Shown here: positions 32,160-49,305 of the stretch, one piece after another
Position numbering within the stretch: the first letter of the stretch is position 1
Layout: every line of letters begins with the position of its first letter
IMG/VR virus record: IMGVR_UViG_3300030060_005272
Location: 313 to 64,312 of that record
Strand: one strand, 5' to 3'
DNA length: 64,000 bases
From: a virus
Lineage: Duplodnaviria; Caudoviricetes
The notes under the pieces: model-generated
What the model was told of the DNA's origin: nothing
Seen by the model: only the letters and a program-made list of their open reading frames with translations
Database searches by the model: none
Program-made: the position numbers and the translations under genes

Positions 32160-32639
32160 ATGAGTAAGACAGATAAACTTATAAAGAAAGTGACAAAAAT
32201 GGACCTAGGTAACCCAGTGATTACAGCTCTTGTTGGACTTGTAGTCTTCTATATTGGATTGAAGATGTTTTCTGGTGGGATGAAATCAATGGGCAACCTT
32301 AATCATCTGAGTTTCTTTATCCACAATCCATATTATATGTTTGTTGGTGGTATAGTAATGACACTATTGTGGCAGTCATCATCGCTATCAACAACAGCTA
32401 TTATTGCATTAGTAGCATCAGGAGCAGTGCCACTACCAGCTGCAGTTGCAGCTGTACTAGGAGCTAATATTGGTACAACAGGTACTATATGGTTAGCTGG
32501 ATTACTTGTATCAGATGGAATGCCTAAAGGTGATACATTACGTATAGCAATGGCACATACAGGAGTGAATCTGCTTATGGCAGTAACACTACTACCATTT
32601 GTACACCACATTGCGAGATTCTTAACAAGGTTTACATAA
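32160..32639 (+). CDS. Na+/phosphate cotransporter family protein, single repeat
   Basis: F..GL..FS.GMK, G...T.L.QSSS.ST, LGANIGTT.T and A.AH...N motifs of the SLC34/NptA family. Confidence 0.85.
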   Translation: MSKTDKLIKKVTKMDLGNPVITALVGLVVFYIGLKMFSGGMKSMGNLNHLSFFIHNPYYMFVGGIVMTLLWQSSSLSTTAIIALVASGAVPLPAAVAAVLGANIGTTGTIWLAGLLVSDGMPKGDTLRIAMAHTGVNLLMAVTLLPFVHHIARFLTRFT

Positions 32640-35420: not shown

Positions 35421-38400
35421 TTAAGCAACCCTCACCCATAATTTAAGTGTAGATGCGGTCCCCACATAGTTGGTTGTATCTACATATGTATTTATATAAC
35501 TCTTTATATAGTCGTTTGAATAATCTATTGAATAAGTCTTGATAAAGTCTGTCTCAAAGTATCCTGTGAAAGTTCCTTCGTAAGCCTTATTGTAGTCTTG
35601 TGTATAGTCTATATATCCTTCGTAGTTCTTAGCATATTCTGCATCATAGAATTTGGCAAAGTTCTTAGTCCAAGCCTTTTCAAAATTAAGCGTTGCAGAA
35701 AAGTTAATGCTACCAAAGTTACTATTATATACAGCTTCATATTCTTTATCGTAGTCCTTAGCATAGTCTGTTTCATTACTATATGTCTTTTCGTATGCGC
35801 CTTCAAATCCTTGAGAGCGCGTAGCAGTATATGTCTTGACATATGTTATGTCAGCTGCGTACTCTTTTGTATAATCTGCTGTATATGTTTTGACATAAGC
35901 AGAAGTTCTCGACCCCTCATATGTATGAATAGATGAGTATGTTTTAGTATACACACCTAAGTATTCTTTAGCAAAATCTTTTTCAAAGTCTTTTTGGAAG
36001 TTTTGAACCTTGGCCCATTCGTTAACATATTCTTTATTATACATCCGACCCCAGCTCTTAGTAAACAGTTTATTGTAATTAATAAAGCCAGAAAATGTTC
36101 TTGTTACTTGTCCAACGTAGTCTTTGAGGTAGTTTGAAATAAATTGTCCAGTGTAATTGATGAAACCAGTATAATTGCCTTCATAATCCCGTGACCATAC
36201 CTTGGTATAGTCTTTGAGGTATGTTGCGGAGTAGTTGCGAGTATATGCTTTCTCCCAAATTTTTGTCCATATTCTTTCATAAGTTTTTGCGTAGGACTTC
36301 TCGTATGCTTTCTCATAAGCCTTTACCCAATCTTTAAGATATCTTCCAACGTAGTTTTTAACATAGTCTTTTTCATAATCAGTCTCATATGTTTTAGTCC
36401 ATAGCTTAGTGTAAGTCTTGGTGTATACTTTATTCCAATCCTTAGTGTATGTCTTAACCCAATTCTTTGTATAAGTTTTTACCCAGTCAGCATCAAATGA
36501 ACCTTCGTAGTCTTTGACATAGTTCTTCTCATATTGTGTTACCCAGTTCTTTGTGTAAGCTGCTTCATAGTCTTTCTCATAACTAGCTTCATAAGCCTTG
36601 ACCCAGTTCTTTGCATACTGTGCAACATATGCAGCATCGAAAGATCCTTCATACTCTTTATCATAATCCTTAGCCCACAACTTAGCATAGTCTTTTAGAT
36701 AATCTTTATTCCATATCTTAGTGTAGGTTGCATCAAAGGAACCTTCATATGCTTTAACATAGTCCTTGTCATATGTCTTAACCCAGTTCTTTTGATATAC
36801 TGCAACATAATCAATGTTCCAGTCTTTAGACCAATCTTTGTTGTATACTTTATCATAGTTTTTAGTATAAGTCTTTACATAGTTTTTAGTATAAGCTGCT
36901 TCATATGCTTTGTTCCAATCCTTATTGTAAACACCAACATATGCTTTAGTATAAGTTTTGACCCAAGACTTTTCATATATCTTATCATATGCCTTTACAT
37001 AATCTGCATCGTAGTTCTTTATCCAGTTCTTGGTATATGCTTTGTTCCAATCTTTTGTATATGTTTTCGTCCATATCTTTGTATAGTTGGCACCAAAGCT
37101 ACCTTCCCAAACTTTTGTATAGTTTGTAGTTTGAGATCCAGAAGCAAAACCTCCATAGAACACAGGCCCAACATATATTTTAGTATACTCACCTAACCAG
37201 GCCTTAGCATAAACTTTATCGTAGTCTTTGTTGTAGTCTGTTGTATACGTCTTGTCATAATCTGTGACGTAGTCTTTTGACCAGATCTTAGTGTAAGTCT
37301 TGTTCCATATTTTTGTATATGCAGCTACATAATCTTTATCGTAGTTTTCATTAAACGAACCTTCATATGCAGCATCATATGTCTTGACCCAATCCTTATT
37401 CCATATCTTTACGTAATCTTTTTCCCAGTCCTTGGCCCAGATCTTTGTGTATGCTGCATCATAGATTTTTGTGTACGTTTGTGACCAGATGCGATCGTAG
37501 TCCTTAACATAATCTTTGTCATAAGACTTGACATAATTTTTTTCATACTCACCAACCCATTGTTTTGCGTAGTCTGCATCATATGATTTTACCCAATTCT
37601 TTACATATATTTTTTCATAGTCTTTTGACCAGTCTTTAGTATAGATACCTAACCATACTTTGTTCCATGGAATCTCATAACCTTTGACATAGTCTTTGTT
37701 CCATACCTTTAGATATGATTTTACCCAGTTATGAGTGTAGTCTGTAACCCAATCTTTCTCATATGCTTTGACATAATCTTTGCTGTACACACCAACATAT
37801 GCCTTGACATAAGTTTTTTCGTAGTTAGTGATATAGTCTTTATTGTAATCAGTAGTATATGTCTTGCCATAATCTTTTAGATAGTCAGCAGAATAATCTT
37901 TGTTCCAAACTTTGGTATAAGCCTTGACCCAGTTTTTGACCCAGTCTTTATCGTATGCGGCTTCATAGTCTTTCTCGTAAGCCTTGACCCAGTCTTCCAA
38001 CCAACTCTTTTCATATAACTTTTCATACTGAACAGTATATTGCTTTACCCAATCTTTTGTCCAAAGTTTTGCATAAGCCTTTTGATAGTTGACTGTATAG
38101 TTTTTAGTCCATTCAGATTGGAATACACCAGGACCAGAAAACTCAACTGTCCATGCTCTACCATAATCTTTTGTATATGTTCTATTGAATGTACCAGAAT
38201 AGTTTGCAGCAGCTGAGAATGAAGCTGCATAATCATTTCCAAAATCTTTTACGTATGCTTTAACATATGTTGCAGCTGAAGTTATTTCACCTTCGTAGAA
38301 AGCAGAGAAAGATGCATTGTAGTTTACAACTCTCTCACCTTCATAGTTAACTTCAAAGTTTTCAGTCTTTTGATATTCACCAGTATAAGTCTTAGTATAA

Positions 38401-39512
38401 GTTTTATTCCAGTCTCTTGCATACTCTGCTAGATAGTTTCTTTCACCAACATATCCTTTGAGATAATCTTTATGAAAGTTTCCTGTGAATGTTTGATCAT
38501 ACTCTTTTGCATATAGTATAAAGCCAGTGTATGCTTTACTGTAAGACTTGATCCAATCTTTTGCAAAGTCACCTTCAAATGTTCTATTGAAGTTTACTAC
38601 ACCTTGATACACACCAATAAAGTCTTTACTGTACGTCTTAGTCCAAACTGTAGTGTATAACTTCTCATAGTTTATTGCACTGGTATATGCTTTTTGATAA
38701 TCTTTTTCATATGTACCAACAAACTGTCCAACAAATGTTCCAGTGTATGTTTTGAGATAATTTTTAGCAAATGCTTTAGTATATGTTTTTAAGTATTCCC
38801 TTGAATAGGAATCACTATCAGAATCAATGATCTTTGTATCAAGTATAGTTCCTTGGTCAACCCATGTACCAGTAGATGGTGCAGCTGCTTGAATAGCATA
38901 CTTACCAATTCCTGTATCAATAATTCTATTTCTTAGTCTTGCTGTGAGAGTTTTGATCTCTGTATTAGTCATCTGTTTTATTGTGCTACCAGTAACCTTC
39001 ATTGGTATAACTTGAGCTGGTGCAGTTGCAACAGATGTTTTTCTGTATAGATTATAACTTGTAGAAGTACTCGTTGTGTTATCAGTTAGCGCTGGTGTTA
39101 TAGCAGCGTATCTATTTGAGTCAGGATTTGTTGTTGACAGGACATAAGACCCAATTCCGTTAGACACAAGATTAGAAAGAGCAGTGCTAATGATAAACGA
39201 ATTAATATTTGCATCAGATGCCTCTTGTATAGTTGAACCGAACTCCACGGGGCGGATCATACTTGATTCTGACACGGATGTTAAATTTTGATAAACTGTA
39301 GTTGTGGAACTTGTTGATGAATTGGTATCTGTAAATGTACCAATACTTGTTCCAGTATCTGTTCCAACAGATAGAGTTCCAGTACCAGAAGTACTAGATG
39401 CAAACTCTGTAAGAACTTGATGGACTATGTGGGTTATTTCTGTATCTGGAATCTCTTGTAGAGCTATCCATGTTCCACCTCCAGAGGTTTTGATTTTAAG
39501 GGGCCGTCCCAT
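35421..39512 (-). CDS. 1363-aa [Y/W]-x-K-x tetrapeptide-repeat protein, putative virion fibre
   Basis: Thr/Ser-rich N-terminal domain (about residues 1-235), a ~1100-aa repeat tract and a short C-terminal strand TLKLWVRVA; lies in the virion module. Confidence 0.8.
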   Translation of the reverse strand: MGRPLKIKTSGGGTWIALQEIPDTEITHIVHQVLTEFASSTSGTGTLSVGTDTGTSIGTFTDTNSSTSSTTTVYQNLTSVSESSMIRPVEFGSTIQEASDANINSFIISTALSNLVSNGIGSYVLSTTNPDSNRYAAITPALTDNTTSTSTSYNLYRKTSVATAPAQVIPMKVTGSTIKQMTNTEIKTLTARLRNRIIDTGIGKYAIQAAAPSTGTWVDQGTILDTKIIDSDSDSYSREYLKTYTKAFAKNYLKTYTGTFVGQFVGTYEKDYQKAYTSAINYEKLYTTVWTKTYSKDFIGVYQGVVNFNRTFEGDFAKDWIKSYSKAYTGFILYAKEYDQTFTGNFHKDYLKGYVGERNYLAEYARDWNKTYTKTYTGEYQKTENFEVNYEGERVVNYNASFSAFYEGEITSAATYVKAYVKDFGNDYAASFSAAANYSGTFNRTYTKDYGRAWTVEFSGPGVFQSEWTKNYTVNYQKAYAKLWTKDWVKQYTVQYEKLYEKSWLEDWVKAYEKDYEAAYDKDWVKNWVKAYTKVWNKDYSADYLKDYGKTYTTDYNKDYITNYEKTYVKAYVGVYSKDYVKAYEKDWVTDYTHNWVKSYLKVWNKDYVKGYEIPWNKVWLGIYTKDWSKDYEKIYVKNWVKSYDADYAKQWVGEYEKNYVKSYDKDYVKDYDRIWSQTYTKIYDAAYTKIWAKDWEKDYVKIWNKDWVKTYDAAYEGSFNENYDKDYVAAYTKIWNKTYTKIWSKDYVTDYDKTYTTDYNKDYDKVYAKAWLGEYTKIYVGPVFYGGFASGSQTTNYTKVWEGSFGANYTKIWTKTYTKDWNKAYTKNWIKNYDADYVKAYDKIYEKSWVKTYTKAYVGVYNKDWNKAYEAAYTKNYVKTYTKNYDKVYNKDWSKDWNIDYVAVYQKNWVKTYDKDYVKAYEGSFDATYTKIWNKDYLKDYAKLWAKDYDKEYEGSFDAAYVAQYAKNWVKAYEASYEKDYEAAYTKNWVTQYEKNYVKDYEGSFDADWVKTYTKNWVKTYTKDWNKVYTKTYTKLWTKTYETDYEKDYVKNYVGRYLKDWVKAYEKAYEKSYAKTYERIWTKIWEKAYTRNYSATYLKDYTKVWSRDYEGNYTGFINYTGQFISNYLKDYVGQVTRTFSGFINYNKLFTKSWGRMYNKEYVNEWAKVQNFQKDFEKDFAKEYLGVYTKTYSSIHTYEGSRTSAYVKTYTADYTKEYAADITYVKTYTATRSQGFEGAYEKTYSNETDYAKDYDKEYEAVYNSNFGSINFSATLNFEKAWTKNFAKFYDAEYAKNYEGYIDYTQDYNKAYEGTFTGYFETDFIKTYSIDYSNDYIKSYINTYVDTTNYVGTASTLKLWVRVA
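35484..38807 (-). repeat. Degenerate 12-bp-periodic coding repeat ([Y/W]-x-K-x)n
   Basis: Residues 236-1343 of the 1363-aa ORF, e.g. YTKIWNKDYVKDYEKNW. Confidence 0.9.
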
Positions 39513-39518
39513 GACACC

Positions 39519-42500
39519 TTAACCTTGGAACATGTAGTTGGGGTCACCTAAAATATTACCCTGGTAGATCATGTTTACATAATCAGAGTCATAACCTTTA
39601 ATGGCTGCACCAGGTTTACCACCATCACCAGATCTTGCAAGTCTTGATTTCCTCAAGAATCTTTCACCACCACCGGTACCAACATTACCTAAGTCTCCAC
39701 CTTTACCACCAATGGCTCTTGAGTTACCATATTCCCAATCAGGAACACCACGGCTACCACCATTGATTAGATTACCTTCTTGTGGTAGGAATAACATATG
39801 ACTGTGATCAGCTTCAGTAGTACCTTCTTCACCAATGTTCCAACCAGCTCCACCAGAACCAGCTACACCAGTTGTCTCTGCAAATCCAAGATATGAAATG
39901 TTCACTTCTCTTGAATATGCTGTATCTTCAAATGTCTTAACATAGTCTTTTGTCCAAGACTTAGTATAGTCACCAGTATAAGTCTTCTCATAATCTTTAG
40001 TAAAGATACCTGTGTAAGTCTTGATCCAGTTCTTCTCATAACCTTTAACATATGCTTTGTTGTATGTTGTTGTTTGTGAGCCAGAAGCAAAACCACCGTA
40101 GAAGACAGGTCCAACATATGCCTTAGCATAATCTTTATTGTATATTACTAGATAGTCTTGGTTGAATGTACCTTCATATGCTTTTTGATATGCTTTTGTA
40201 TATACACCTTGATACAATTGATCATAGTTCTTGGTATATGTTTTGAGATATGTACCAATGAATGAACCTTTGGTGTTGTATACTCTAACAAATGTATCTG
40301 TGTACTCTTTGAGGAATGCACCATACACACCACCAGGTCTGCTATAGTTACCAAGATATTCTTTTATCCAAGTTGTAGCATAGTCTGCTGTGTAGTCTTT
40401 ATTGTACTCTGCCTCATAAGCCTTAACCCAATCTTTTGAATATGTCTTAACATATGTTGCAGTGTATGTTCCTGTGTACGATGCTTCATATTCTGCAGTG
40501 TAGTCTCTATCGTATGAGCCACCAAAGTCTTTCTGATATTGTTTTGTAAAGTCAGCAAGATATGTTGCAGAGTATTCACCAATGTATGTGGTAGAACCAA
40601 AACCCTTAGTCCATATTTTTGACCATGCTTTTTCATACTCTTTGTCATATGATCCTTCGTATTCTGCATCGTATGATCTTGAGAATGTTGCAGTGTATGA
40701 TCCAACATAATCTGCATCATATGCTTTAACATAGTCTTTTGTATATATTTTTGTATACGCTTTAGTGTAATCTTTATCATATGCTTTTGTATATGCTTTC
40801 GTCCACTCTTTAGCGTAATCAGCTGAATAGTCTTTAGTATACGTTTTGGTGTATGCTTTTGTAAATGCACCAGTGTAATCTTTTACATAATCCTTCTCAT
40901 ATGACTTAGTCCAATCACTTGAGTATGTCTTCTCATAACTCTTAGTGTATGCTTTTGTATATGTTGCAGCAGAGCTGTTCCATAACTTAGCATAGTCTTT
41001 GGAATAATCCTTATCGTAGTTCTTAGTATAGTCGCCAACATATACACGATCGTAGTTCTTAACATAACTCTTAGAGAAAGTTCCTTCGTAGTCTTTTTCA
41101 TAATCTTTGTTGTAATCTTTGGACCATGCTTTTGTATATGCAGCTTCATATGCTTTTTCATAATCTTTTTCATATGACTTGGTGTATGCTTTTTCCCAAT
41201 CAGTTGAGTAATCAACAGAGTATGCTTTTTCCCAACTCTTAGTATATGTTGCACCATCATAAGTAGGTCCTACATATGCATCGTCTGCACTCTCGTATGT
41301 CTTAGTATAGATACCAATGTATGTCTTAACATATGTTGCAAGATAATCTGCTTCATATTCTTTATCATATGCTCCACCCCACTCATCAACATAACTTCCT
41401 TGCCATACTTTGTCATATGCTTTTTGATATGTCTTTTCATATATGCCACCATATATTGTACCATCATATGTTTTGGTATATGTCTTAGTCCAATCTTTAG
41501 CAAATGCAGCACCATCATATGCTTTGTTGTAATCTTTTTCGTATACTTTAGTATATGTTTTTTCCCAAGCCTTGGTGTATGCTTTAGTCCATATCTTAGT
41601 ATATGTTTTGGAGTATGCTTTTGCGTATGATCCAACTGATGTAATAAATCCAGCAGACTCAAATCCACCATACGTACGACCAAATCTTACATTTGTATAT
41701 TCTTTTGCATAAAGAGCAACACCAGAGTCTGGAAGATAAGTCTTCATAAAGTTTGTTGGTGTCATTGCATCTTGCTGACCACCATGGAAAGATCCAGCCC
41801 AGTTTGAAGCCCAATCTTCTACCCAAGCCTTCTCCCAGTTAACTGTATAGTTAGCAGCAGATGAATCCCAAGCCTTAGCATATACCTTATCGTATGCTTT
41901 AGTATATGGAGATGCATATAGTTTAGTATAATCAACATCATAGTTCTCTGCTTGTGAGAATGATCCAAGCTCACCTCTTGATCCTGGTACTCCTGCAGTG
42001 TAAGCTGTCTGGCCAGTAAATCCAGAAACATATTCTTTGTTAAAGTCTTTAATGAAGCTAACTTCACCATCTCCATATGCTCTAGCAGATGTGAATTGTC
42101 CAGCTGCTCCAGTATAAGATGCTACGTCTTCATCAATCCAATACAATTGTCCAGTGTATGCTTTCTGGTATGCTTCAGTATAACTTGCATCGTATTGTTT
42201 ATTATATACTTTTTGGTAGTTTTTGAGATAGTCTTTCTCGTATGCGCCTTGCCAGATCTTAGTATATGTCTTGGACCAAATCTTAGTCCAGTTTGCATCA
42301 AAAGATCCTTCATATGCTTTTGCCCATACCTTAGCATAATCTTTTAGATAGTTACCAGTCCATACTTTAGTATAGTCTTTGGAATAAGCCTTGACCCAGT
42401 CTTTATTATATACTCCAACCCAAGCCTTTGCATAGTCTTTATTATAATCTTTAGTGTATGCTCCAACATACTCTTTATTGTATACCTTTTCCCAAGATTT

Positions 42501-45500
42501 AGTATAGTCAGCACTGAAATCTGTAGACCACACTTTAGTGTAGTCACCGGTGTATACAACCTCATATCCTTTGGCGTAATCTTTTGAGAAGATTCTTAGA
42601 TAGTCTGTACCGCCACCATTGAATGCTGCTTCAAAGTCTCTTGCATATCCTTTAGACCATACTTTTGTATACTCTCCTTGATATACTGTGCTGAAGTCTT
42701 TGGCCCATACTTTTGTGTAAACTTTATCATAGTTTTTAGTATATGTTTTGGTATAGTTACCTTCCCAGATCTTAGTATATGTCTTAGTATAGGTTGCATC
42801 AAATGAACCTTCATATGCTTTGGTATATGTCTTCTCCCAATCCTTAGCATATATTTTAGTGTAGTCTGCTGCATACTCTTTAACGTATACTTTTTCCCAA
42901 TCTTTATTGTATACACCAACATATGCTTTAGTATAGTCTGTAGAATAATCTTTGACATAGTCTGTTGAGTAGTCGCCAACATATACTTTAACGTAATTCT
43001 TGACCCAGTCTTTTGTATATGCTTTACTCCATGTAGCACCATATTCAGTAAGTACTCCAGAACCATGATATGTGTCACCAAGATATGTGGTTGTGTATAC
43101 ACCAGATTCTTTACTGTATGGATCAGAGATACCAGATGCACCTCCACCACCACCGCCACCACCAATGGTACCATAGTTCTCTATAAACAGATGTACGTTA
43201 GCTCCAGACTCAATAGCATGTCCACCATCACTACCATGACTACCTAGACCTCTTGTACTTCCATTTGCATCGCCACCATCTCCACCTTTACCTACAATGA
43301 ATCCAGTTGTGTAATTTACAATTCGTACAAGGTGTTTGATCTCTGCTTGTGTATCTCCTGAAACATTAGCTGTAACAGAATCCATATTCAAGTTTACAGC
43401 AGGAATATTATTTGCTGTAGAACCAAATACAAAGTTCTTAGTATAGTCATCTTTTACACCAACAAATATGTTCACTAATTGTGGAACAGTATCTGGTGTC
43501 TTACCTTTAGCTTCAAGATATGATTTTAAGTTGAAGTCATTTACATAGTAAGTGATCTTGCCCATATGAAGATCGTGACCTCGAGCTGAACCTGCATCAC
43601 TATCGCTAGTAAGAACTTCACCTTCATCTAAGAAGATATCAGTTGTATCGTAACCAATGTATGCTAGCTTCCATGTATCATCTTGCTTAGTATTTAAGTA
43701 CTTGACTTTCTTCCACTGACCAGATGCATGTACAAACAATTGCTTGACATTCTTCCAAGTATTGTCTTGCATGATATGAAGTTTAGGTTGACCAGCCAGG
43801 TTAGAATCAAGCTGACCACCAGAAGGACCTACGAAACTTGTTGTACCTTCGTAAGGAACATTCCTTGTTAGTGCACCAGTATATCTTTGTGTGAAGTCAC
43901 TATCACCAGTATATGATGGTGCAAAGCTGGCTATGTATGGACCTTCCCAAGTCTTAGTATAGTTAACAGGACCAGAATAATCAGTTGTTCCAGCATATGC
44001 TTTTAGATAGGCTGCTGCACCTCCATACGATCCGGTATAGTTAGCAACATACTCTTTTGCATAATCTTTAAGGTAACCTTTTGTCCAAGCCTTAGTATAG
44101 ACTTTATCATAGTCTTTGTCGTATGTTTTCTCGTAATCTTTGTTCCAACCTTTAGTATAGTCTGCAGCATAATCTGCTGACCATATCTTAGTATAGGTAT
44201 CACCAGACCCATCAACATAAGCCTTGGTCCAATCTTTAGTCCATACTTTGGTGTATACTTTATCATAGTTCTTGACATATGCTTTAGTATATGTCTTAGT
44301 CCAAACTTTTGTATAGTCTGCTGAGTAATCTTTTTCATACTCTTTTTCATAATTGTGACTATAGTTACCAGTCCAAGTTTTAGCATACTCAGTACCCCAA
44401 GCCTTACCATAAAATCTTAGGCCAGTATAGTTCTTGGTGTAGTGTATATTACCTTCCCAGTTCTTAGCACCGAGATAGTATTTGATGAATGTTGCAAAGA
44501 TACCTTCATAGGCTTTGGTGTAAGTACCTTGATACTCTTGAGTGTAGTCAGTCTCGTAATCTTTGACCCAGTTTTTAGTATACGTTTTGACATAGTCTTT
44601 TAAGTAGTCTTTGTCATAGTTCTTAGTATACTCACCCTGCCATAATTTGAGATAGTCTCTTGTATAGTGAGCTTCATATAATTTTGAATATGTCTTGCCG
44701 TAATCAACTGAGTAATCTGTTTCGTAATTTTTAACCCAGTTCTTAGTATACGTCTTAACATATACTTTGTTCCAGTCTTTGGTATAAGTCTTGACCCAGT
44801 TTTTATCGTAACTCTTAACCCAAGCTCTATCCCAAATCTTGGTGTACGCAGCTTCATAGTCTTTAGCCCACAGCTTTGTATAAACTTTATCGTAGTCTTT
44901 GACCCAATCTTTATTGTAGACTGCATCCCAGTTTTTGTCATAAGCAGCTACATAATCTTTCTCATATGCTTTGATCCAGTCTTTATCATACTGCTTTTCA
45001 TATTCAGTATCATAATTCTTGACCCAGTTCTTAGTCCATACCTTAGTATAGTCTTTTTCATATGTTTCAATATACTCTTTGTTCCAATCTGTTTCATAGA
45101 CCTTATCATAGTCTTTAGAGTATGCCTTCTCATATGTGGCATCAAAGGAACCTTCATATACTTTATCATAATCTTTAGAATATGCTTTTACCCAATCTTT
45201 GTTGTATGTTGCATCAAAAGAACCTTCGTAATCTTTAACCCAGTTCTTGACCCATTCACCAACCCAAACATTGACGTAATCTTTTACGTAGTCTTTGTTC
45301 CAAATTTTAGTGTAGACTTTATCGTAATCTTTTGTCCATATCTTAGTATACACACCAGTCCAAGTTTTGTCATATGCCTTGACCCAGTCTTTAGTGTATG
45401 TCTTATCGTATCCTTTTACCCAGTTTTTGGTATAGATTTTATCGTATGCTTTTTCATAATCTTTGTTCCAAACTTTAGTATAGTTTGCATCAAAGCTACC

Positions 45501-48500
45501 TTCCCAAACTTTGGTATAGTTTGTTGTCTGTGATCCTGATGCAAAACCACCATAGAAAACTGGACCTACATATATCTTGTCGTAGTTGCCTAACCATACC
45601 TTAGCATAAACTTTATCGTATGTCTTTTCCCAGTTCTTATTCCAGACCTTGGTATAATCTACGACGTAGTCTTTTTCCCATACCTTTGTATATACTTTAT
45701 CATATGCTTTTTCATACGTAGCATTAAACACACCTTCGTATGTCTTGTCATAATCCTTTGCCCAGATCTTAGTATAGTCTGCACTGTATGTTTTAACATA
45801 TGCTTTTTGGAATGATGTCCAATCAGCAGAATTTATTTGTTCTTGAGCTGTCTCGTTATCAGTAACATTGAAGTTACCAGTATACTTACCATTGGTTTTG
45901 TCTATTCTTAGATCATCAATGTAACCACCAATAGATGCATCTAACTGTCTTCTGTTACCAATTACTAATCTATTGGCTCCAGTTAAGTTAGCAGCTGAAG
46001 TATACGTTGCTGCATCAGCTGTACCATTAATGTATACTTTGATTGCGTTGCTTATTCTTACAATTGCAACATGAATCCAAGTATCAGTTGACCAAGGACT
46101 ATTGTCGTCTGCTGTAACTCTAGCTGTTGTTCCTTCGTAGAATATTATCTGACTAGGACTAGATGCATCGTTACCTCTGATAGCCCATTTAACACTATTG
46201 TCAGAAGAATCATATGCTTCCAAGATTGTAGCATTGTTTGTACCAACAGCTCTTAACCAAAACTCAATTGTAAAGTCTTCATTTTGAAAGTTAAAGTCAT
46301 CATCTGCAAAGTTAATTGTTAGACCACTAGATCCGGTACTTGGTACTTCTATAGATGCAGAACCAAATTTATTTTGATCTGTACTCTTAGCAGCATTTCC
46401 ATGTACAGTTGTAACATGGTTACCATTATCAGACGCGTCAATAAACTCTACATCACCATCGGTTGCATTTGGTATTTCAGCATTTAGTAATAGAACTGTC
46501 GTATCAAAGTTATCATATGGAACGTGATAAGATGTGACATAGTCTTTGCTGTATACACCAACCCATGCTTTTTCATATGCCTTGGAATAGTCTTTTTCCC
46601 AATTTCTATCCCAAATTTTTGTATACTCACCAAGCCAAACCTTATCATATGCTTTGACCCAATCTTTGGCCCAGATCTTAGTATATGCAGCAGTGTATGC
46701 TTTGATATAACCTTTGTTGTATGCTTTCGTATAGACTTTATCATAATCTGTTACATAGTCTTTTTCCCAAGTCTTACCATATGCTTTTATGTAAGCCTTG
46801 ACATAATTTTTCTCGTATGCTTTGACCCAGTTTTTCTCATACCTGCCAACCCATATCTTAGTATAAGCAGCATCGTATGTTTTTTGCCATACTTTTGTAT
46901 AGTCTTCAGCATAGTCTTTAGACCAATTTTTAAGATATATTTGATCATAGTTTGCAACATAATCTTTGTTATATGTTGCAACATAGTCTTTTAGATAGTC
47001 AGTGGTATATGTCTTACCATAATCTTTTTCATAATCTGTAACATAATCTTTCTGCCAAATCTTAGTCCAGATTTTTGTATATGTCTTGCCCCAATCTCTT
47101 TCCCAATCTTTGGCATAAGATAGATCGTAGTTCTTAGTCCATATCTTGGTATAGTCGGCACCATAATCTTTTTCGTAAGTAGCATTCCAAACTTTATCGT
47201 AGTCTTTAGCATATGCTTTGACCCAATCTTTGGAATAATCTGCTGCATAATCTGTTAACCAGTTTTTGGTATAGGTTGCATCGAAGCTACCTTCGTAAGA
47301 CTTGACCCAAGCCTTTTCCCAATCTTTTGTATAATCAGCTGTATATGCTTTCTGCCAAACTTTACCGTACGAAGTTGTTTGAGAACCAGAAGCAAATCCT
47401 CCATAGAAGACTGGACCAACATATGCTTTATCGTAATCTTTAACCCAATCTTTGGAATATACTTTGTTGTATAGTTTGATATAATCTTTGTTGTATATGC
47501 CAAGCCATGCTTTGCCATAATCTTCAAGGTAGTCTTTTGTCCAAACCTTTGTATAGATTTTGGTATATGTCTTTTCCCAATCTTTGGAATAGATTTTGGT
47601 ATATGGAACTTCATATGCTTTTGTCCATACTTTAGAATATACCTTATCATAATCTTTGTGATATGATGTACGATATGCAGCAACGTAATCACCAACATAT
47701 AATTTTTCATATCTTTTGGTATAAGTTTTTACATAATTTTTTTCGTAATCTGTGACGTAGTCTTTTGACCAGATCTTAGTATAAATTCTAAAGTAGTTAC
47801 CAATGTAATCTTTTTCATATACACCAACAAATGCAGAACCAAGATATGAGTTATCAGCCAGACCTTCATACGTACCAACATAGTCAGATGTTCCAACATA
47901 GTATACAAGAGTTTGATAATTTGTATCACCAGCATATGTACCTGTATAAGTTAGTCCATCGTAGTTTACGTTACCAAGATAAGACAGGCCACCAGACCAT
48001 ACTCTTGTAAAGTCTGCTACTGTTGTGTATGCTTTTGAATAGTTTTTGTTGAAGTTCTCTTCAGCCATGTATGATGCACGGCCAGTGTATGCTTTGATGT
48101 AATCAGCAGCACCAACATAGTTCTTATTGTAATCTACTGTACCAACATATGTCTTTGTATAGAATTGTGTAGCTTGATATCCTTTAGTGTAGTTCACAAA
48201 CCCTGTGAAACCAGCACCAGTAGAATCAAGATATGTTATTGCACCACCGTAGTCTTTACTGTAAACTATAAAGCTAGTTGCTCCTACCCATGCACCAGCA
48301 GAATAGTCTTTGTCGTAGTTTACATCAACTGTATATGATTTTGTATATGTTGCAGTACCACCATATGCTTTTAAGTAGTCTCTCTGCCACTCAGCTTGGT
48401 ATATTGTGTTACCAACATATGTTTTAGAATATGTTTTAGTATAAGTTGTTGAACCTTCATATGTTTTTGTATATGATGCAAAGCCAACAAATCCACTATA

Positions 48501-48998
48501 TGTTGGTGTGTATGCTAGTTCTCCAACCCATGTTGCTGTATATGCAGCACCATCATAGTTTCCATCACCAACATAACCAACAACACGACTGTATGCAATA
48601 TCAGTACTATATGTACCACTATAGTTGGCACTAATATTCATTTTAGCCCAGATATTGTCCGGTTGGTTACCTGTGGCTGAATAGTCTTTTCTGTATCCTA
48701 ATTGACCAGTAAAGTTCTTTAGTGATGTATATGCTTTTGAATAAGTATCAGTATCGTCTGAATTGTAGTTTACAAAGCCTTCATATGAAGCTGTGTATAC
48801 TCCAGCAAAGTTTGTTTGCCATGCAAGAGTTGATGTCCTACTATTAGTATAGACTCCCTCAAATCCATTATAGAATCCATGGAACGCATTTGTGTATACG
48901 ATGTAAGGAACTCTGGTACCTTGACCAGTGTACGAAACCTCAAAGGTCCGTTCCCCTCCAGCATATTCTTTTGCGTAAAGTCGATTCGAGTAAGACAT
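39519..48998 (-). CDS. 3159-aa repeat fibre/adhesin with [Y/W]-x-K-x tracts, a LamG-like domain and a split gp38-like Gly-rich domain
   Basis: Two long repeat tracts. LamG-like segment (DFTIEFW, W.HVAIVR, YING, GYIDDLRI) at about 45850-46515. Gly-rich gp38-like motifs at about 43130-43335 and 39519-39880. Confidence 0.8.
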   Translation of the reverse strand: MSYSNRLYAKEYAGGERTFEVSYTGQGTRVPYIVYTNAFHGFYNGFEGVYTNSRTSTLAWQTNFAGVYTASYEGFVNYNSDDTDTYSKAYTSLKNFTGQLGYRKDYSATGNQPDNIWAKMNISANYSGTYSTDIAYSRVVGYVGDGNYDGAAYTATWVGELAYTPTYSGFVGFASYTKTYEGSTTYTKTYSKTYVGNTIYQAEWQRDYLKAYGGTATYTKSYTVDVNYDKDYSAGAWVGATSFIVYSKDYGGAITYLDSTGAGFTGFVNYTKGYQATQFYTKTYVGTVDYNKNYVGAADYIKAYTGRASYMAEENFNKNYSKAYTTVADFTRVWSGGLSYLGNVNYDGLTYTGTYAGDTNYQTLVYYVGTSDYVGTYEGLADNSYLGSAFVGVYEKDYIGNYFRIYTKIWSKDYVTDYEKNYVKTYTKRYEKLYVGDYVAAYRTSYHKDYDKVYSKVWTKAYEVPYTKIYSKDWEKTYTKIYTKVWTKDYLEDYGKAWLGIYNKDYIKLYNKVYSKDWVKDYDKAYVGPVFYGGFASGSQTTSYGKVWQKAYTADYTKDWEKAWVKSYEGSFDATYTKNWLTDYAADYSKDWVKAYAKDYDKVWNATYEKDYGADYTKIWTKNYDLSYAKDWERDWGKTYTKIWTKIWQKDYVTDYEKDYGKTYTTDYLKDYVATYNKDYVANYDQIYLKNWSKDYAEDYTKVWQKTYDAAYTKIWVGRYEKNWVKAYEKNYVKAYIKAYGKTWEKDYVTDYDKVYTKAYNKGYIKAYTAAYTKIWAKDWVKAYDKVWLGEYTKIWDRNWEKDYSKAYEKAWVGVYSKDYVTSYHVPYDNFDTTVLLLNAEIPNATDGDVEFIDASDNGNHVTTVHGNAAKSTDQNKFGSASIEVPSTGSSGLTINFADDDFNFQNEDFTIEFWLRAVGTNNATILEAYDSSDNSVKWAIRGNDASSPSQIIFYEGTTARVTADDNSPWSTDTWIHVAIVRISNAIKVYINGTADAATYTSAANLTGANRLVIGNRRQLDASIGGYIDDLRIDKTNGKYTGNFNVTDNETAQEQINSADWTSFQKAYVKTYSADYTKIWAKDYDKTYEGVFNATYEKAYDKVYTKVWEKDYVVDYTKVWNKNWEKTYDKVYAKVWLGNYDKIYVGPVFYGGFASGSQTTNYTKVWEGSFDANYTKVWNKDYEKAYDKIYTKNWVKGYDKTYTKDWVKAYDKTWTGVYTKIWTKDYDKVYTKIWNKDYVKDYVNVWVGEWVKNWVKDYEGSFDATYNKDWVKAYSKDYDKVYEGSFDATYEKAYSKDYDKVYETDWNKEYIETYEKDYTKVWTKNWVKNYDTEYEKQYDKDWIKAYEKDYVAAYDKNWDAVYNKDWVKDYDKVYTKLWAKDYEAAYTKIWDRAWVKSYDKNWVKTYTKDWNKVYVKTYTKNWVKNYETDYSVDYGKTYSKLYEAHYTRDYLKLWQGEYTKNYDKDYLKDYVKTYTKNWVKDYETDYTQEYQGTYTKAYEGIFATFIKYYLGAKNWEGNIHYTKNYTGLRFYGKAWGTEYAKTWTGNYSHNYEKEYEKDYSADYTKVWTKTYTKAYVKNYDKVYTKVWTKDWTKAYVDGSGDTYTKIWSADYAADYTKGWNKDYEKTYDKDYDKVYTKAWTKGYLKDYAKEYVANYTGSYGGAAAYLKAYAGTTDYSGPVNYTKTWEGPYIASFAPSYTGDSDFTQRYTGALTRNVPYEGTTSFVGPSGGQLDSNLAGQPKLHIMQDNTWKNVKQLFVHASGQWKKVKYLNTKQDDTWKLAYIGYDTTDIFLDEGEVLTSDSDAGSARGHDLHMGKITYYVNDFNLKSYLEAKGKTPDTVPQLVNIFVGVKDDYTKNFVFGSTANNIPAVNLNMDSVTANVSGDTQAEIKHLVRIVNYTTGFIVGKGGDGGDANGSTRGLGSHGSDGGHAIESGANVHLFIENYGTIGGGGGGGGASGISDPYSKESGVYTTTYLGDTYHGSGVLTEYGATWSKAYTKDWVKNYVKVYVGDYSTDYVKDYSTDYTKAYVGVYNKDWEKVYVKEYAADYTKIYAKDWEKTYTKAYEGSFDATYTKTYTKIWEGNYTKTYTKNYDKVYTKVWAKDFSTVYQGEYTKVWSKGYARDFEAAFNGGGTDYLRIFSKDYAKGYEVVYTGDYTKVWSTDFSADYTKSWEKVYNKEYVGAYTKDYNKDYAKAWVGVYNKDWVKAYSKDYTKVWTGNYLKDYAKVWAKAYEGSFDANWTKIWSKTYTKIWQGAYEKDYLKNYQKVYNKQYDASYTEAYQKAYTGQLYWIDEDVASYTGAAGQFTSARAYGDGEVSFIKDFNKEYVSGFTGQTAYTAGVPGSRGELGSFSQAENYDVDYTKLYASPYTKAYDKVYAKAWDSSAANYTVNWEKAWVEDWASNWAGSFHGGQQDAMTPTNFMKTYLPDSGVALYAKEYTNVRFGRTYGGFESAGFITSVGSYAKAYSKTYTKIWTKAYTKAWEKTYTKVYEKDYNKAYDGAAFAKDWTKTYTKTYDGTIYGGIYEKTYQKAYDKVWQGSYVDEWGGAYDKEYEADYLATYVKTYIGIYTKTYESADDAYVGPTYDGATYTKSWEKAYSVDYSTDWEKAYTKSYEKDYEKAYEAAYTKAWSKDYNKDYEKDYEGTFSKSYVKNYDRVYVGDYTKNYDKDYSKDYAKLWNSSAATYTKAYTKSYEKTYSSDWTKSYEKDYVKDYTGAFTKAYTKTYTKDYSADYAKEWTKAYTKAYDKDYTKAYTKIYTKDYVKAYDADYVGSYTATFSRSYDAEYEGSYDKEYEKAWSKIWTKGFGSTTYIGEYSATYLADFTKQYQKDFGGSYDRDYTAEYEASYTGTYTATYVKTYSKDWVKAYEAEYNKDYTADYATTWIKEYLGNYSRPGGVYGAFLKEYTDTFVRVYNTKGSFIGTYLKTYTKNYDQLYQGVYTKAYQKAYEGTFNQDYLVIYNKDYAKAYVGPVFYGGFASGSQTTTYNKAYVKGYEKNWIKTYTGIFTKDYEKTYTGDYTKSWTKDYVKTFEDTAYSREVNISYLGFAETTGVAGSGGAGWNIGEEGTTEADHSHMLFLPQEGNLINGGSRGVPDWEYGNSRAIGGKGGDLGNVGTGGGERFLRKSRLARSGDGGKPGAAIKGYDSDYVNMIYQGNILGDPNYMFQG
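39910..43110 (-). repeat. Second [Y/W]-x-K-x repeat tract of the 3159-aa protein
   Basis: About 1070 residues of 4-residue periodicity between the two halves of the Gly-rich domain. Confidence 0.85.
43850..48990 (-). repeat. First [Y/W]-x-K-x repeat tract of the 3159-aa protein, interrupted by the LamG-like domain
   Basis: 4-residue periodic aromatic/Lys pattern, more irregular and Gly-rich at both ends. Confidence 0.85.
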
Positions 48999-49011
48999 AC
49001 TTTATATATGC

Positions 49012-49305
49012 CTAACTAAATGTCTGGTACCAGATATCTCCATTAGCGCCACCAGAAGGTGTCGATGTACTAACGTAGACAACATACTCGGAATCATTAT
49101 TAGATGCAGCTTCAAAGTTACGAGATGTCTTTGAGATGGCTGCTACACTTATAGCATTTACAAGTCCTCTACTAGTTACATTTGCCGTGACAGCAAAAGT
49201 TGTATTTCCAAAGTTGCCTGTTGATATGCCTGTATCCGGCAGTGTAGATGTTTGCACATTGGCTGTGCTGTTAACAATCGTAACACCGTTAACTTTTAAT
49301 GGCAT
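49012..49305 (-). CDS. Small tail-fibre-associated protein
   Basis: C-terminal YVSTSTPSGGANGDIWY, a motif common in phage fibre proteins. Confidence 0.55.
   Translation of the reverse strand: MPLKVNGVTIVNSTANVQTSTLPDTGISTGNFGNTTFAVTANVTSRGLVNAISVAAISKTSRNFEAASNNDSEYVVYVSTSTPSGGANGDIWYQTFS

What the first reader, a model, noticed from the sequence alone, without database searches (positions are those of the whole stretch)
35421..39512. 1363-aa protein is mirror-symmetric about a central motif: predicted giant beta-hairpin of roughly 180 nm
Seen: the repeat tract spans residues 236-1343 and the motif YVGPVFYGGFASGSQTT occupies 780-796, leaving 544 residues before it and 547 after. Both arms are most regular near the centre and become irregular (GFINY, GVVNF-type bulges) toward their bases. 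The aromatic (i) and Lys (i+2) residues would fall on one face of a beta-strand. Inference: the chain runs out, turns at the motif and returns as a two-stranded antiparallel ribbon stabilised by cation-pi pairs, with the C-terminal strand completing the N-terminal domain. At about 0.33 nm per residue this is roughly 180 nm. A beta-solenoid is the alternative.
Basis: partly seen in the sequence, partly recalled or inferred. Interest (0 to 1): 0.85.

Follow-up and report, generated by a model that had tools for sequence, protein, structure and literature searches.

The report
Giant fold-back beta-hairpin phage fibre
A 1363-residue protein in the tail-fibre gene cluster of an uncultured marine T4-like phage most likely runs out about 570 residues, turns at a small conserved motif and runs back beside itself as one very long two-stranded ribbon, a way of building a virus fibre that I could not find described.

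Summary
The motif sits at 780-796. Exactly 79 perfect [YWF]-x-K-x tetrads flank it on each side, in this protein and in 3 of 3 orthologues.

The two arms match in mirror order:
- Gly at repeat position 3 falls at tetrads 2, 16, 32, 40 and 52 in both arms (P = 9e-7).
- Trp on one arm faces a non-Lys residue on the other only at one mirror shift (p = 7e-8).
- Eight bulges lie at equal distances from the centre.

The N-domain is three homologous repeats. The conserved C-terminal strand is predicted to dock back onto repeat 3 (score 0.81, best control 0.00), in the same register, i+j = 1578, as the distal covariation.

The giant insert is therefore an extended beta-hairpin of repeat 3. Of 24 relatives with an aromatic-aromatic-Gly-Gly turn, 18 keep it at the midpoint.

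Oligomeric state, straightness and the roughly 180 nm length remain untested. AlphaFold2 on the centre was uninformative (pLDDT 31).

The family (304 cluster representatives) matches no Pfam or PHROG family and no solved fold at the thresholds used.

The scan reached the same reading before on other DNA (e1-6156877, e1-6156884 and others). That is not independent evidence.

The parts
35421..39512 (-). Whole gene, 1363 aa (P0001): base domain, fold-back stalk and closing strand
   Evidence: orthologues of 1363, 1363 and 1452 aa in L003-L005
39267..39512 (-). N-domain repeat 1 (residues 1-82), with its own short beta-hairpin
   Evidence: hhalign rep1-rep2 98.1 %, rep1-rep3 97.6 %; AF2 of homologue P0163 gives pLDDT above 90 for the N-domain
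39003..39266 (-). N-domain repeat 2 (residues 83-170), with its own short beta-hairpin whose return strand resembles the C-terminal strand
   Evidence: hhalign rep2-rep3 99.6 %; C-terminal profile aligns to its return strand, E 6.9e-4, probability 27 %
38808..39002 (-). N-domain repeat 3, N-terminal part (residues 171-235), ending in the invariant G-T-W217 strand from which arm 1 departs
   Evidence: G215 and W217 invariant; 215-233 contact 1346-1363
38124..38807 (-). Arm 1, proximal part (residues 236-463): tetrads with a hexad about every 26 residues
   Evidence: hexads face the hexads of arm 2 at i+j = 1578
37176..38123 (-). Arm 1, distal part (residues 464-779): 79 perfect tetrads
37122..37175 (-). 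Turn or tip motif YVGPVFYGGFASGSQTT(N), residues 780-797
36174..37121 (-). Arm 2, distal part (residues 798-1113): 79 perfect tetrads, in mirror register with arm 1
35469..36173 (-). Arm 2, proximal part (residues 1114-1348): tetrads with hexads at mirrored positions
35424..35468 (-). Conserved C-terminal strand (residues 1349-1363, ...LKLWVRVA): the displaced last strand of repeat 3
   Evidence: 85 complete family members end this way; L1358 and R1361 invariant
39519..48998 (-). Neighbouring 3159-aa protein (P0002) built from the same repeat and three copies of the same motif, with LamG-like and gp38-like parts. Context, not part of the gene.

Best explanation
P0001 is a virion fibre built from a single chain that folds back on itself.

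Its first roughly 235 residues are three homologous repeats of about 75 residues, each helix plus strands ending in a beta-hairpin. They form one compact base with a possibly beta-prism-like, pseudo-threefold fold.

In repeat 3 that terminal hairpin is stretched about fifty-fold. The chain leaves at the G-T-W217 strand and runs out about 570 residues as [Tyr/Trp]-x-Lys-x tetrads. It reverses at the Gly/Pro-rich motif 780-797, then returns antiparallel and in register (i+j about 1578). It ends as the LKLWVRVA strand, which closes repeat 3.

The stalk is a two-stranded beta ribbon. One face is an aromatic-lysine ladder: Tyr/Trp across from Tyr, Lys across from Lys, and Trp next to a small residue on the partner strand. 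The other face is acidic, polar and aliphatic.

If straight, the stalk would be roughly 170-190 nm long.

The gene lies at the end of the baseplate-fibre module. I infer that the base domain attaches to the virion and that the stalk holds the conserved tip loop far from it, for first contact with the host surface. In relatives a LamG-like or other globular domain sits at that tip.

Status of each step:
- Shown by sequence statistics: mirror-register pairing of the arms.
- Supported by prediction only: closure at the base.
- Inferred: beta conformation, length, attachment and function.
- Open: whether the ribbon stands alone or bundles.
For: Arm pairing:
- Exactly 79 tetrads flank the motif on each side in 4 of 4 orthologues.
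- Gly at position 3 falls at tetrads 2, 16, 32, 40 and 52 in both arms; arm 2 also has 65 and 79. Hypergeometric P = 9.3e-7.
- Trp versus non-Lys/Arg on the partner arm gives [[27,18],[17,94]], odds ratio 8.3, p = 7.5e-8 at one mirror shift only. The eight other shifts give p >= 0.17, and own-strand controls p >= 0.009.
- Trp:Trp cross pairs are 1 of 79 against 6.4 expected.
- A blind scan of 13,520 tract/orientation/offset combinations ranks arm1/arm2 antiparallel at offset 0 first, z = 5.47 (99.9th percentile 2.75).
- Between P0001 and L005, 4 of 9 Trp changes coincide with a Lys/small change at the predicted partner, against 12 of 147 elsewhere (p = 0.007). All four go in the expected direction.
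- There are no DNA inverted repeats of at least 24 nt in the gene.

Base closure:
- 85 complete family members of 287-2316 aa keep both the N-domain and the C-terminal x[YWF]xRx[AS].
- AF2 of the 551-aa homologue P0163 gives pLDDT above 90 for residues 1-260 and 93-98 for 530-551, with strands 249-273 and 517-549.
- ESMFold2 complex of P0001 1-300 with 1276-1363: ipSAE 0.81 (runs 0.84, 0.81, 0.81), best of 3 controls 0.00. That mark was reached by 58 of 80 solved complexes and 2 of 110 mismatched pairs. The runs agree in at least 39 % of contacts, and partner pLDDT is 38-43.
- The three repeats are homologous: hhalign 98.1, 97.6 and 99.6 %.

Turn at the midpoint: 18 of 24 motif-bearing relatives have it within 5.5 residues of the midpoint.

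Beta rather than helix or solenoid: only periods 2.0 and 4.0 in the distal arms, with 1 Pro and 15 Gly in 632 residues. Relatives have Gly/Ser/Thr-rich arms.

Fibre role: the family gene follows gp8-like (phrog_438) and phrog_358 genes here and in L009 and L010.
Against: - No structure prediction shows the long stalk. AF2 of residues 638-938 gave pLDDT 31 and all helices. In P0163 the middle of the insert has pLDDT below 50. In the complex run only 1346-1363 made confident contacts, and the partner's own fold is uncertain.
- Six of the 24 motif-bearing relatives have the motif off-centre: P0003, P0004 and P0015 by 245-363 residues, P0136 by 21.5, P0042 by 10.5-16.5, and P0017 by 11.5.
- Orthologue L005 has 89 extra residues at the base of arm 1 with no counterpart in arm 2.
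- Automated arm measures were noisy. Only 11 of 36 relatives have the mirror centre within 2 % of the midpoint. A longest-gap measure failed on P0001 itself.
- Lys facing Lys along 40 of 79 rungs looks electrostatically unfavourable.
- A lone two-stranded ribbon of this length has no precedent.
- Phage fibres are normally trimers.
- No isolate phage, proteome or micrograph links the protein to a virion. The host is unknown: gp6 is only about 35 % identical to its best-covering isolate matches.
Confidence: 0.72

Rival explanations
1. Same fold-back hairpin, but it does not stand alone. Several hairpins, for example three, or P0001 together with the repeat tracts of P0002, pack edge to edge or face to face into a thicker multi-stranded fibre, as the six-stranded needle of T4 gp37 does.
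For: Both strands have a free edge. One face is strongly basic and aromatic (K109, Y107, W45) and the other acidic and polar (D62, E32, 1 R), so faces could stack. Phage fibres are typically trimers (abstract of PMC12143355, seen in the listing). P0002 uses the same repeat and tip.
Against: Neither face looks like a buried core: one is Lys-rich and the other Asp/Glu-rich. The base is three repeats within one chain, which could stand in for a trimer. The blind scan found no P0001-P0002 pairing signal above z = 3.2. No oligomer prediction was run.
Confidence: 0.25
2. The arms pair as shown, but the ribbon is wound or folded into a compact superhelix or solenoid-like body, so the object is far shorter than 180 nm.
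For: Two-stranded ribbons twist strongly (own knowledge). The proximal parts have a 26-residue super-period in both arms.
Against: The 316-residue distal tracts show no period other than 2.0 and 4.0 and have almost no turn-formers, 1 Pro and 15 Gly in 632 aa. The Gly rungs are unevenly spaced, 14, 16, 8 and 12 tetrads apart.
Confidence: 0.08
3. Domain-swapped antiparallel dimer. The chain does not turn at the motif; arm 1 of one chain pairs with arm 2 of another, and each C-terminal strand closes the other chain's base.
For: Mirror covariation cannot tell intra-chain from inter-chain antiparallel pairing.
Against: The centre is a conserved Gly/Pro-rich turn-like motif under strong purifying selection. 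Short relatives have arms of about 25 residues, which can only form an ordinary hairpin. AF2 closes the base within one chain in P0163.
Confidence: 0.04
4. Antiparallel alpha-helical hairpin, a Rad50/SMC-like coiled-coil arm, as in the AlphaFold2 model of the centre.
For: AF2 of residues 638-938 drew helices 2-143 and 158-300 with a break at the motif. Mirror covariation would also arise in a helical hairpin.
Against: That model has pLDDT 31 and is meaningless. An exact period of 4.0 over 79 units without stutters, and period 2.0 for polar and aliphatic residues, do not fit 3.5-3.6 residues per turn. Homologous arms in relatives are Tyr/Gly/Ser/Thr/Asn-rich. AF2 draws long strands at the base of P0163's arms, with pLDDT above 90 only at their base ends. 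The covarying contacts sit at even sums, i+j = 1578 and 1580, as expected for one face of a beta ladder.
Confidence: 0.03
5. A low-complexity, largely disordered linker with no fixed structure, the symmetry being accidental.
For: Low pLDDT everywhere in the repeat.
Against: Mirror-register statistics of P about 1e-6 to 1e-7, the same tetrad counts in 4 of 4 orthologues, and compensatory changes between orthologues.
Confidence: 0.02

Closest known systems
Distal tip of the phage T4 long tail fibre protein gp37 (collar D10 plus needle D11)
   Same: Out-and-back topology in a phage fibre. The D10 domain is made of residues 811-881 and 1010-1026, that is, of the segments before and after the needle (passage of PMC6957217). 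The receptor-binding tip therefore lies in mid-sequence and the chain returns to a base domain.
   Different: gp37 is a trimer whose needle holds seven iron ions bound by His residues (same passage). The excursion is about 130 residues, not 1142. P0001 has 0 HxH and 3 His in its arms and no Pfam or PHROG match. It has a 4-residue repeat and a base made of three repeats within one chain.
Tryptophan-zipper (Trpzip) beta-hairpin peptides
   Same: Hairpins stabilised by cross-strand aromatic pairs lined up on one face (abstract start of PMC12271999, seen in the listing; further details from my own knowledge). P0001 has 79 aromatic-aromatic rungs per distal tract at i+j = 1578.
   Different: Trpzips are designed peptides of 12-16 residues that use Trp:Trp pairs. 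Here Trp:Trp is avoided (1 of 79), Tyr:Tyr and Trp:Tyr dominate, Lys rungs alternate with the aromatic rungs, and the hairpin is about 40 times longer.
Rad50/SMC-type antiparallel coiled-coil arms (own knowledge, not tested here)
   Same: The N- and C-terminal parts form one head, a very long antiparallel two-stranded arm extends from it, and a small conserved motif sits at the apex.
   Different: Those arms are alpha-helical with heptad-type periodicity. Here the periodicity is 2.0 and 4.0, with beta-type composition.
gp38-type adhesins with Gly-rich motifs (PF05268)
   Same: Found in the neighbouring P0002 at residues 1868-1959 and in P0002-like relatives that use the same tetrad repeat and an aromatic-aromatic-Gly-Gly turn.
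   Different: P0001 itself has no PF05268 match at E <= 0.01. Its ends are the three-repeat base and the closing strand instead.
Beta-prism domains (C-terminal domain of Plu-MACPF 2qp2_A, MABP domain 3tow_A)
   Same: Best structural matches of the P0163 model: Z 6.5 (rmsd 3.6, 119 aligned) for 2qp2_A and Z 5.7 (rmsd 3.9, 117 aligned) for 3tow_A. The base has three internal repeats, as a pseudo-threefold prism would.
   Different: Z below 8 is within the range the tool calls common. Foldseek found nothing at E <= 0.001 in the PDB or BFVD. The resemblance is a lead, not a family assignment.

Membership tests
Uncharacterised phage family defined here: three-repeat base + insert + closing strand | N-terminal domain of about 240 aa homologous to the query domain | tested here: met
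   phmmer with residues 1-240 found 304 representatives at E <= 0.001, 203 at <= 1e-10 and 17 at <= 1e-30
Uncharacterised phage family defined here: three-repeat base + insert + closing strand | C-terminal strand x[YWF]xRx[AS] at the very end of the protein | tested here: met
   P0001 ends LKLWVRVA. Of the 177 proteins in hand, 85 end this way, at lengths of 287-2316 aa. L1358 and R1361 are invariant in 82 sequences.
Uncharacterised phage family defined here: three-repeat base + insert + closing strand | Insert with two equal arms around a central turn or tip domain | tested here: met
   P0001: FYGG centre at 786.5 against a W217-W1359 midpoint of 788.0. 18 of 24 motif-bearing members lie within 5.5 aa of the midpoint and 6 do not.
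T4 gp37-type fibre tip (collar + iron-binding needle) | Sequence similarity to gp37 or known tail-fibre families | tested here: not met
   0 Pfam families at E <= 0.01 and 0 PHROGs at E <= 0.001 for P0001
T4 gp37-type fibre tip (collar + iron-binding needle) | His-x-His metal-binding motifs along the needle | tested here: not met
   0 HxH and 3 His in the 1113 arm residues
T4 gp37-type fibre tip (collar + iron-binding needle) | Base domain formed by the segments before and after the excursion | tested here: met
   By prediction only: ipSAE 0.81 against a best control of 0.00, with contacts between 215-233 and 1346-1363. AF2 of P0163 agrees.
T4 gp37-type fibre tip (collar + iron-binding needle) | Homotrimer | not tested
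No oligomer prediction or experiment was made.
gp38 adhesin (PF05268) | Gly-rich motif domain | tested here: not met
   No PF05268 hit in P0001. The hit is in P0002, residues 1868-1959, E 1.3e-8.
Beta-solenoid repeat proteins | A constant coil-length super-period with turn residues at the corners | tested here: not met
   The distal tracts show only periods 2.0 and 4.0, with 1 Pro and 15 Gly in 632 aa. Gly rungs are 14, 16, 8 and 12 tetrads apart. The proximal parts do have a 26-residue period.
Antiparallel alpha-helical coiled coil | Heptad or hendecad periodicity of core residues | tested here: not met
   Aromatic spacing is exactly 4 over 79+79 units, and polar and aliphatic residues show period 2.0. 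The only helical model has pLDDT 31.
Beta-prism fold (base domain) | Three-sheet pseudo-threefold prism | tested here: inconclusive
   VIA-align Z 6.5, 6.3, 5.7 and 5.3 to 2qp2_A, 8b6v_A, 3tow_A and 6sb1_A, with rmsd 3.6-5.2 and 117-122 aligned. Three homologous repeats. Model coordinates could not be inspected.

The most novel reading that the evidence does not exclude
The tetrad repeat is a protein analogue of nucleic-acid base pairing. A size-complementarity code on one face of the ribbon sets the register of very long antiparallel strands: Gly with Gly, Trp beside a small residue, Tyr beside Lys, and Trp never facing Trp. Phages would then build length-tunable, single-chain fibres as 'stem-loops', and even branched ones.

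In the neighbouring 3159-aa protein the same code predicts a 64-tetrad stem (544-827 with 1245-1500). Its tip carries a LamG-like domain plus a 20-tetrad side hairpin, like a multi-branch RNA junction.

The three-repeat base would be a one-chain substitute for the usual fibre trimer.
Probability: 0.45. Interest if true: 0.92.

Novelty: categorically new. Interest (0 to 1): 0.82.

Why it matters
If the structure is as inferred, this is a new way to build a long biological fibre. A single polypeptide is zipped to itself over more than 500 residue pairs, and a simple, readable sequence code fixes its length and register.

That would:
- explain a family of hundreds of unannotated proteins in the tail modules of marine T4-like phages;
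- relocate the expected receptor-binding site of such fibres to the middle of the gene rather than the C-terminus, which matters for predicting host range from metagenomes;
- offer a natural template for designing rigid or semi-flexible beta ribbons of programmable length and branching.

It also makes a concrete question about how far a two-stranded beta ribbon can extend without a hydrophobic core directly testable on a natural protein.

Tried and rejected
- **AlphaFold2 on the centre of P0001** (residues 638-938, with a 4-row alignment of the window's own motif regions). Mean pLDDT 31, all helices. I treat it as uninformative, not as evidence for helices.
- **Foldseek of the P0163 model** against the PDB and BFVD. 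Nothing at E <= 0.001.
- **VIA-align wide search**. Only middling Z values, at most 6.5.
- **Family libraries on the base domain and short relatives.** Pfam at E <= 10 and PHROGs at E <= 1 gave nothing meaningful.
- **ESM Atlas**. The nearest clusters are uncharacterised viral proteins with no common Pfam family.
- **tblastn against 50,697 phage records.** Full P0001 matched only a repeat protein of Phage C48C1 at 22 % identity. The base domain and the 296-aa relative P0104 gave no match at E <= 0.001.
- **First shuffle test of mirror symmetry**. Weak: 8 of 200 shuffles reached the observed maximum, and that maximum lay at a local centre.
- **Family-wide mirror-centre scan**. 11 of 36 within 2 % of the midpoint, the others up to 20 % off.
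- **Longest-gap arm measure**. 19 of 56 within 10 %, r = 0.32. It picked the wrong gap in P0001, L003, L004 and L005. It is crude, and I do not lean on it.
- **Base-proximal aromatic register test**. 21 of 66 relatives have their best offset within +/-2 of the prediction, but only 2 at exactly 0. The modal offset was -1, and P0001 itself scored best at +1.
- **Co-substitution between orthologues**. Confounded by both arms varying mostly on the same face: all odd shifts were enriched, with +1 the strongest. I used the Trp/Lys-specific test instead.
- **Complex prediction**. It says nothing confident about the 70 arm residues 1276-1345.
- **Motif as the sole organiser of equal arms.** Rejected, because the three copies in P0002 have flanking tetrad runs of 34/72, 20/86 and 12/12. 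A nested pairing accounts for the motif 2 imbalance and for most of the longer run after motif 1.
- **Literature.** Five searches found no description of such a fibre (plus for gp37). This covers only the held library.

Full report
**Setting.**
The window is an IMG/VR viral record of 64,312 bases, estimated 36 % complete, with about 35-40 % G+C. On the minus strand it carries a T4-type baseplate module:
- gp6-like, 61209-63026;
- a gp7-like wedge protein, 58541-61207;
- gp8-like (phrog_438), 56768-58537;
- a 2191-aa DUF4815/phrog_358 protein, 50183-56758;
- a 219-aa protein with an endosialidase-chaperone domain, 49305-49964;
- a 3159-aa repeat protein, P0002, 39519-48998;
- the 1363-aa target, P0001, 35421-39512.

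The best-covering isolate matches to the gp6 homologue are only about 35 % identical: Stenotrophomonas DLP_6, Caulobacter Cr30, Sinorhizobium phiM12 and Pelagibacter HTVC008M. I therefore call the phage an uncultured marine T4-like myovirus of unknown host, not a cyanophage.

**The observation.**
P0001 has 271 aromatic-started units between residues 236 and 1343, and 235 of them are exact tetrads. Position 1 is Y157/W51/F27. Position 3 is Lys in 149 of 235. Positions 2 and 4 are mostly T, V, E, N, D and A.

The regular core is exactly 79 tetrads on each side (464-779 and 798-1113). The same count is found in three orthologues from other viral contigs whose base domains are 97, 92 and 85 % identical (L003, L004, L005).

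Outside the core, both arms carry a hexad about every 26 residues. The bulges lie roughly 328, 354, 380, 406, 432, 458, 484 and 510 residues from position 788.5 in both arms.

The mirror correlation of this irregularity pattern peaks at 788.5 with r = 0.64. With the motif masked it is 0.615, with side peaks of 0.58-0.59 at +/-13 and +26 that reflect the 26-residue period. An earlier shuffle test was weak: 8 of 200 shuffles reached a maximum that lay at a local centre.

**Direct evidence that the arms touch, in mirror order.**
I counted tetrads outward from the motif.
- Gly replaces Lys at position 3 at tetrads 2, 16, 32, 40 and 52 of arm 1, and at 2, 16, 32, 40, 52, 65 and 79 of arm 2. The chance that all five arm-1 sites fall on arm-2 sites is 9.3e-7. 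The three orthologues share the five common sites.
- Trp at position 1 on one arm goes with a non-Lys/Arg residue at position 3 of the other arm at exactly one mirror shift: table [[27,18],[17,94]], odds ratio 8.3, p = 7.5e-8. The eight neighbouring shifts give p >= 0.17, and own-strand controls p >= 0.009.
- At the register i+j = 1578, the 79 position-1 pairs are YY 32, WY 20, YW 20 and WW 1, against 6.4 WW expected. The position-3 pairs include KK 40 and GG 5.
- A blind scan of all long tetrad tracts of P0001 and P0002, in both orientations and at all offsets (13,520 combinations), ranks arm1/arm2 antiparallel at offset 0 first. Its z is 5.47, and the 99.9th percentile is 2.75.
- Between P0001 and L005, 4 of 9 Trp/non-Trp changes are accompanied by a Lys/non-Lys change at the predicted partner, against 12 of 147 sites without a Trp change (p = 0.007). 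The four are W-to-Y with A-to-K twice, W-to-Y with G-to-K, and Y-to-W with K-to-A. L004 gives 2 of 4 against 5 of 152 (p = 0.01). L003 gives 1 of 3 against 3 of 153 (p = 0.075).

A DNA inverted repeat cannot produce a mirror-image protein, and there is none of at least 24 nt in the gene. The mirror pattern must therefore be maintained by selection on contacts.

**The two ends meet.**
Searching 1.84 billion representatives with residues 1-240 found 304 proteins at E <= 0.001. Among the 177 proteins in hand, 85 are complete in the sense that they end in x[YWF]xRx[AS]. They range from 287 to 2316 aa. A conserved base and a conserved last strand thus bracket an insert of about 40 to 2000 residues.

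The base consists of three homologous repeats: profile-profile probabilities 98.1, 97.6 and 99.6 %. Repeats 1 and 2 each end in a short hairpin whose return strand has the consensus t-Y-x-L-W-r-k-T. Repeat 3 lacks that strand in place. The family's C-terminal profile aligns to exactly this strand of repeat 2, although weakly (E 6.9e-4, probability 27 %).

AlphaFold2 on the 551-aa relative P0163, with a 73-row alignment, gives pLDDT above 90 for residues 1-260 and 93-98 for 530-551. It draws long strands at 249-273 and 517-549, and below 50 in the middle of the insert.

For P0001 itself I gave residues 1-300 and 1276-1363 to the complex predictor as two chains, with the family alignment.
- The score was 0.81 (runs 0.84, 0.81, 0.81), and the best of three controls was 0.00. 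That mark was reached by 58 of 80 solved complexes and 2 of 110 mismatched pairs.
- The runs agree in at least 39 % of contacts, and the partner's pLDDT is 38-43.
- Confident contacts join 1346-1363 to 201-212 and 215-233, with pairs 217:1361, 220:1358 and 222:1356, that is, i+j about 1578.
- The tool warns that such a pass supports binding but does not show it, and that my own alignment was used.

No similar solved complex was found, so memory of a known structure is unlikely to explain the pass.

Three independent markers agree within two residues:
- the midpoint of the invariant Trp217 and Trp1359, at 788.0;
- the FYGG turn centre, at 786.5;
- the covariation register, 1578/2 = 789.

**Do relatives keep equal arms?**
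Twenty-four of the 85 complete proteins carry an aromatic-aromatic-Gly-Gly motif between the two conserved Trp. In 18 of them its centre lies within 5.5 residues of the midpoint, for spans of 54 to 1142 residues.

The six exceptions are P0003, P0004 and P0015 (245-363 residues off, inside large irregular central regions), P0136 (21.5), P0042 (10.5 and 16.5) and P0017 (11.5).

Orthologue L005 (1452 aa) keeps 79+79 tetrads but has 89 extra residues at the base of arm 1 only, which puts its motif 43 residues off-centre. I cannot explain this beyond guessing at a small side branch.

Other relatives carry a globular domain at the centre. P0154 has a LamG-like segment at about residues 690-860 by my reading of its sequence (it has no Pfam match at E <= 10). 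Its best mirror centre, 787.5, lies close to the insert midpoint, 791.5.

Four relatives (P0091, P0094, P0097, P0121) have the FYGGF-type motif early in the chain, at residues 84-130, where repeat 1's hairpin would lie. The repeat assignment is my inference from the matched ranges.

Automated family-wide measures were noisier, and I report them as such.

**Beta, not helix or solenoid.**
The distal tracts have power only at periods 4.0 and 2.0. Polar and aliphatic residues alternate with period 2.0. There is 1 Pro and 15 Gly in 632 residues, no HxH and no Cys. Relatives replace Lys by Gly, Ser or Thr in the same repeat.

The only helical model has pLDDT 31.

One face of the ribbon holds K109, Y107 and W45. 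The other holds D62, T49, V46, N36, E32 and A30, with a single Arg. Neither face looks like a buried core, which leans towards a solvent-exposed two-faced ribbon. The oligomeric state was not tested.

The length follows from (1361-217)/2 = 572 residue pairs at about 0.33 nm each, which gives about 189 nm. After allowing for bulges I estimate roughly 170-190 nm if the ribbon is straight. This is arithmetic, not a measurement.

**The motif and P0002.**
The 17-residue motif occurs four times in the two genes. The copies are identical in amino acids, with 7-10 synonymous differences per 51 nt, so it is under strong purifying selection.

In P0002 the perfect-tetrad runs on either side of the motifs are 34/72, 20/86 and 12/12, which at first looks like evidence against the hairpin idea.
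- The Gly rungs match within the short arms: 2 and 14 for motif 2, 5 and 8 for motif 3, and 7 for motif 1.
- The blind scan's second-best hit pairs tract 544-827 antiparallel with tetrads 22-85 of tract 1161-1500, z = 4.23.
- At that offset the Trp/non-Lys table is [[23,13],[14,76]], p = 2.2e-7, while the 12 neighbouring offsets give p >= 0.21.

The LamG-like domain (828-1062) and the 20-tetrad hairpin of motif 2 therefore appear to sit at the end of a 64-tetrad stem. P0002 looks like a branched set of stems, not a counter-example.

**Function.**
In two distant viral contigs (L009 and L010, base domains 37 and 35 % identical) the family gene also lies one to three genes after the gp8-like and phrog_358 genes. 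It is thus a conserved member of the baseplate-fibre module.

I infer that the base attaches to the virion and that the stalk presents its mid-sequence tip to the host surface. Nothing here tests binding, copy number or presence in virions.

**What is known.**
P0001 and its base domain match no Pfam or PHROG family at the thresholds used. No solved or predicted viral fold matched at Foldseek E <= 0.001. There was no tblastn match in 50,697 phage records for the base domain. The only ESM Atlas neighbours are unnamed viral clusters.

The closest described analogue is the gp37 tip of T4, whose collar is built from residues 811-881 and 1010-1026 around the needle (passage of PMC6957217).

My literature searches found no paper describing a tetrad-repeat fold-back fibre. 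They cover only the held library.

Earlier agents of this scan reached the same reading on an orthologous 1363-aa protein in another genome and on other family members. I list these notes but do not count them as evidence.

**Verdict.**
- The fold-back, register-matched pairing of the arms is strongly supported by sequence statistics.
- The closure at the base is supported by two predictions.
- The beta-ribbon geometry, the length, a stand-alone state and the fibre function remain inferences that simple experiments can test.

Noticed in passing
window 39519-48998 (P0002), residues 544-827 with 1245-1500: The same Trp/small pairing rule predicts a long-range antiparallel stem of 64 tetrads in the neighbouring 3159-aa protein. 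The LamG-like domain (828-1062) and a 20-tetrad side hairpin sit at its tip, so the chain would be branched like an RNA junction (z 4.23 in a blind scan; p = 2.2e-7 at one offset only).
   Followed up: partly
window 39519-48998 (P0002), residues about 1722-1985 and 3024-3159: By eye, these two parts resemble the two halves of the C-terminal gp38-like Gly-rich domain of shorter relatives (P0005, P0006, P0019). They are separated here by about 1040 residues of repeats, so a second globular domain would be split by an out-and-back insert. PF05268 hits only 1868-1959. Not formally tested.
   Followed up: no
window 37122-37175, 47370-47420, 45519-45569, 40065-40115 (the four motif copies): Four amino-acid-identical copies of the 17-residue motif differ by 7-10 synonymous changes per 51 nt. 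This indicates purifying selection on the tip, not recent gene conversion. In orthologues L003 and L004 the Phe is Tyr.
   Followed up: yes
L005 (IMG/VR contig), protein residues 236-364: The 1452-aa orthologue has 89 extra repeat residues at the base of arm 1 with no counterpart in arm 2, while its 79+79 core is unchanged. This may be a small side branch. It remains unexplained.
   Followed up: no
P0091, P0094, P0097, P0121 (relatives): These short relatives carry the FYGGF-type motif early in the chain, at residues 84-130. That would be an extension of repeat 1's hairpin, suggesting that more than one hairpin of the base can be elongated. The repeat assignment is inferred from matched ranges.
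   Followed up: no
P0081 (relative, 2393 aa): phmmer reports 19 matched stretches of the base-domain repeat in one protein. This would be a long tandem array of the roughly 75-aa repeat.
   Followed up: no
window 27346-28801 (+ strand): An Asp/Asn beta-hydroxylase-like gene (PF05118, E 5e-6) and a radical SAM gene (PF04055, E 2e-14) lie about 7 kb from the two Tyr/Trp-x-Lys repeat genes. Four ORFs without Pfam hits follow them. Whether any of these modifies the fibres was not tested.
   Followed up: no
window 49305-49964 (-): A 219-aa protein with a C-terminal endosialidase-chaperone domain (PF13884, E 4.5e-13) lies between the phrog_358 protein and P0002. It is probably a short trimeric fibre with a self-cleaving chaperone.
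   Followed up: no
window 32160-32639 (+): A 159-aa ORF with a single Na+/Pi-cotransporter repeat (PF02690, E 1e-15).
   Followed up: no
P0001 residues 236-463 and 1114-1348; P0002 residues 1-405: The proximal arms of P0001 have a 26-residue super-period, five tetrads plus one Y-x-G-x-x-N-type hexad. The N-terminal 400 residues of P0002 alternate tetrad and hexad with a period of about 10. The structural meaning is unknown.
   Followed up: partly
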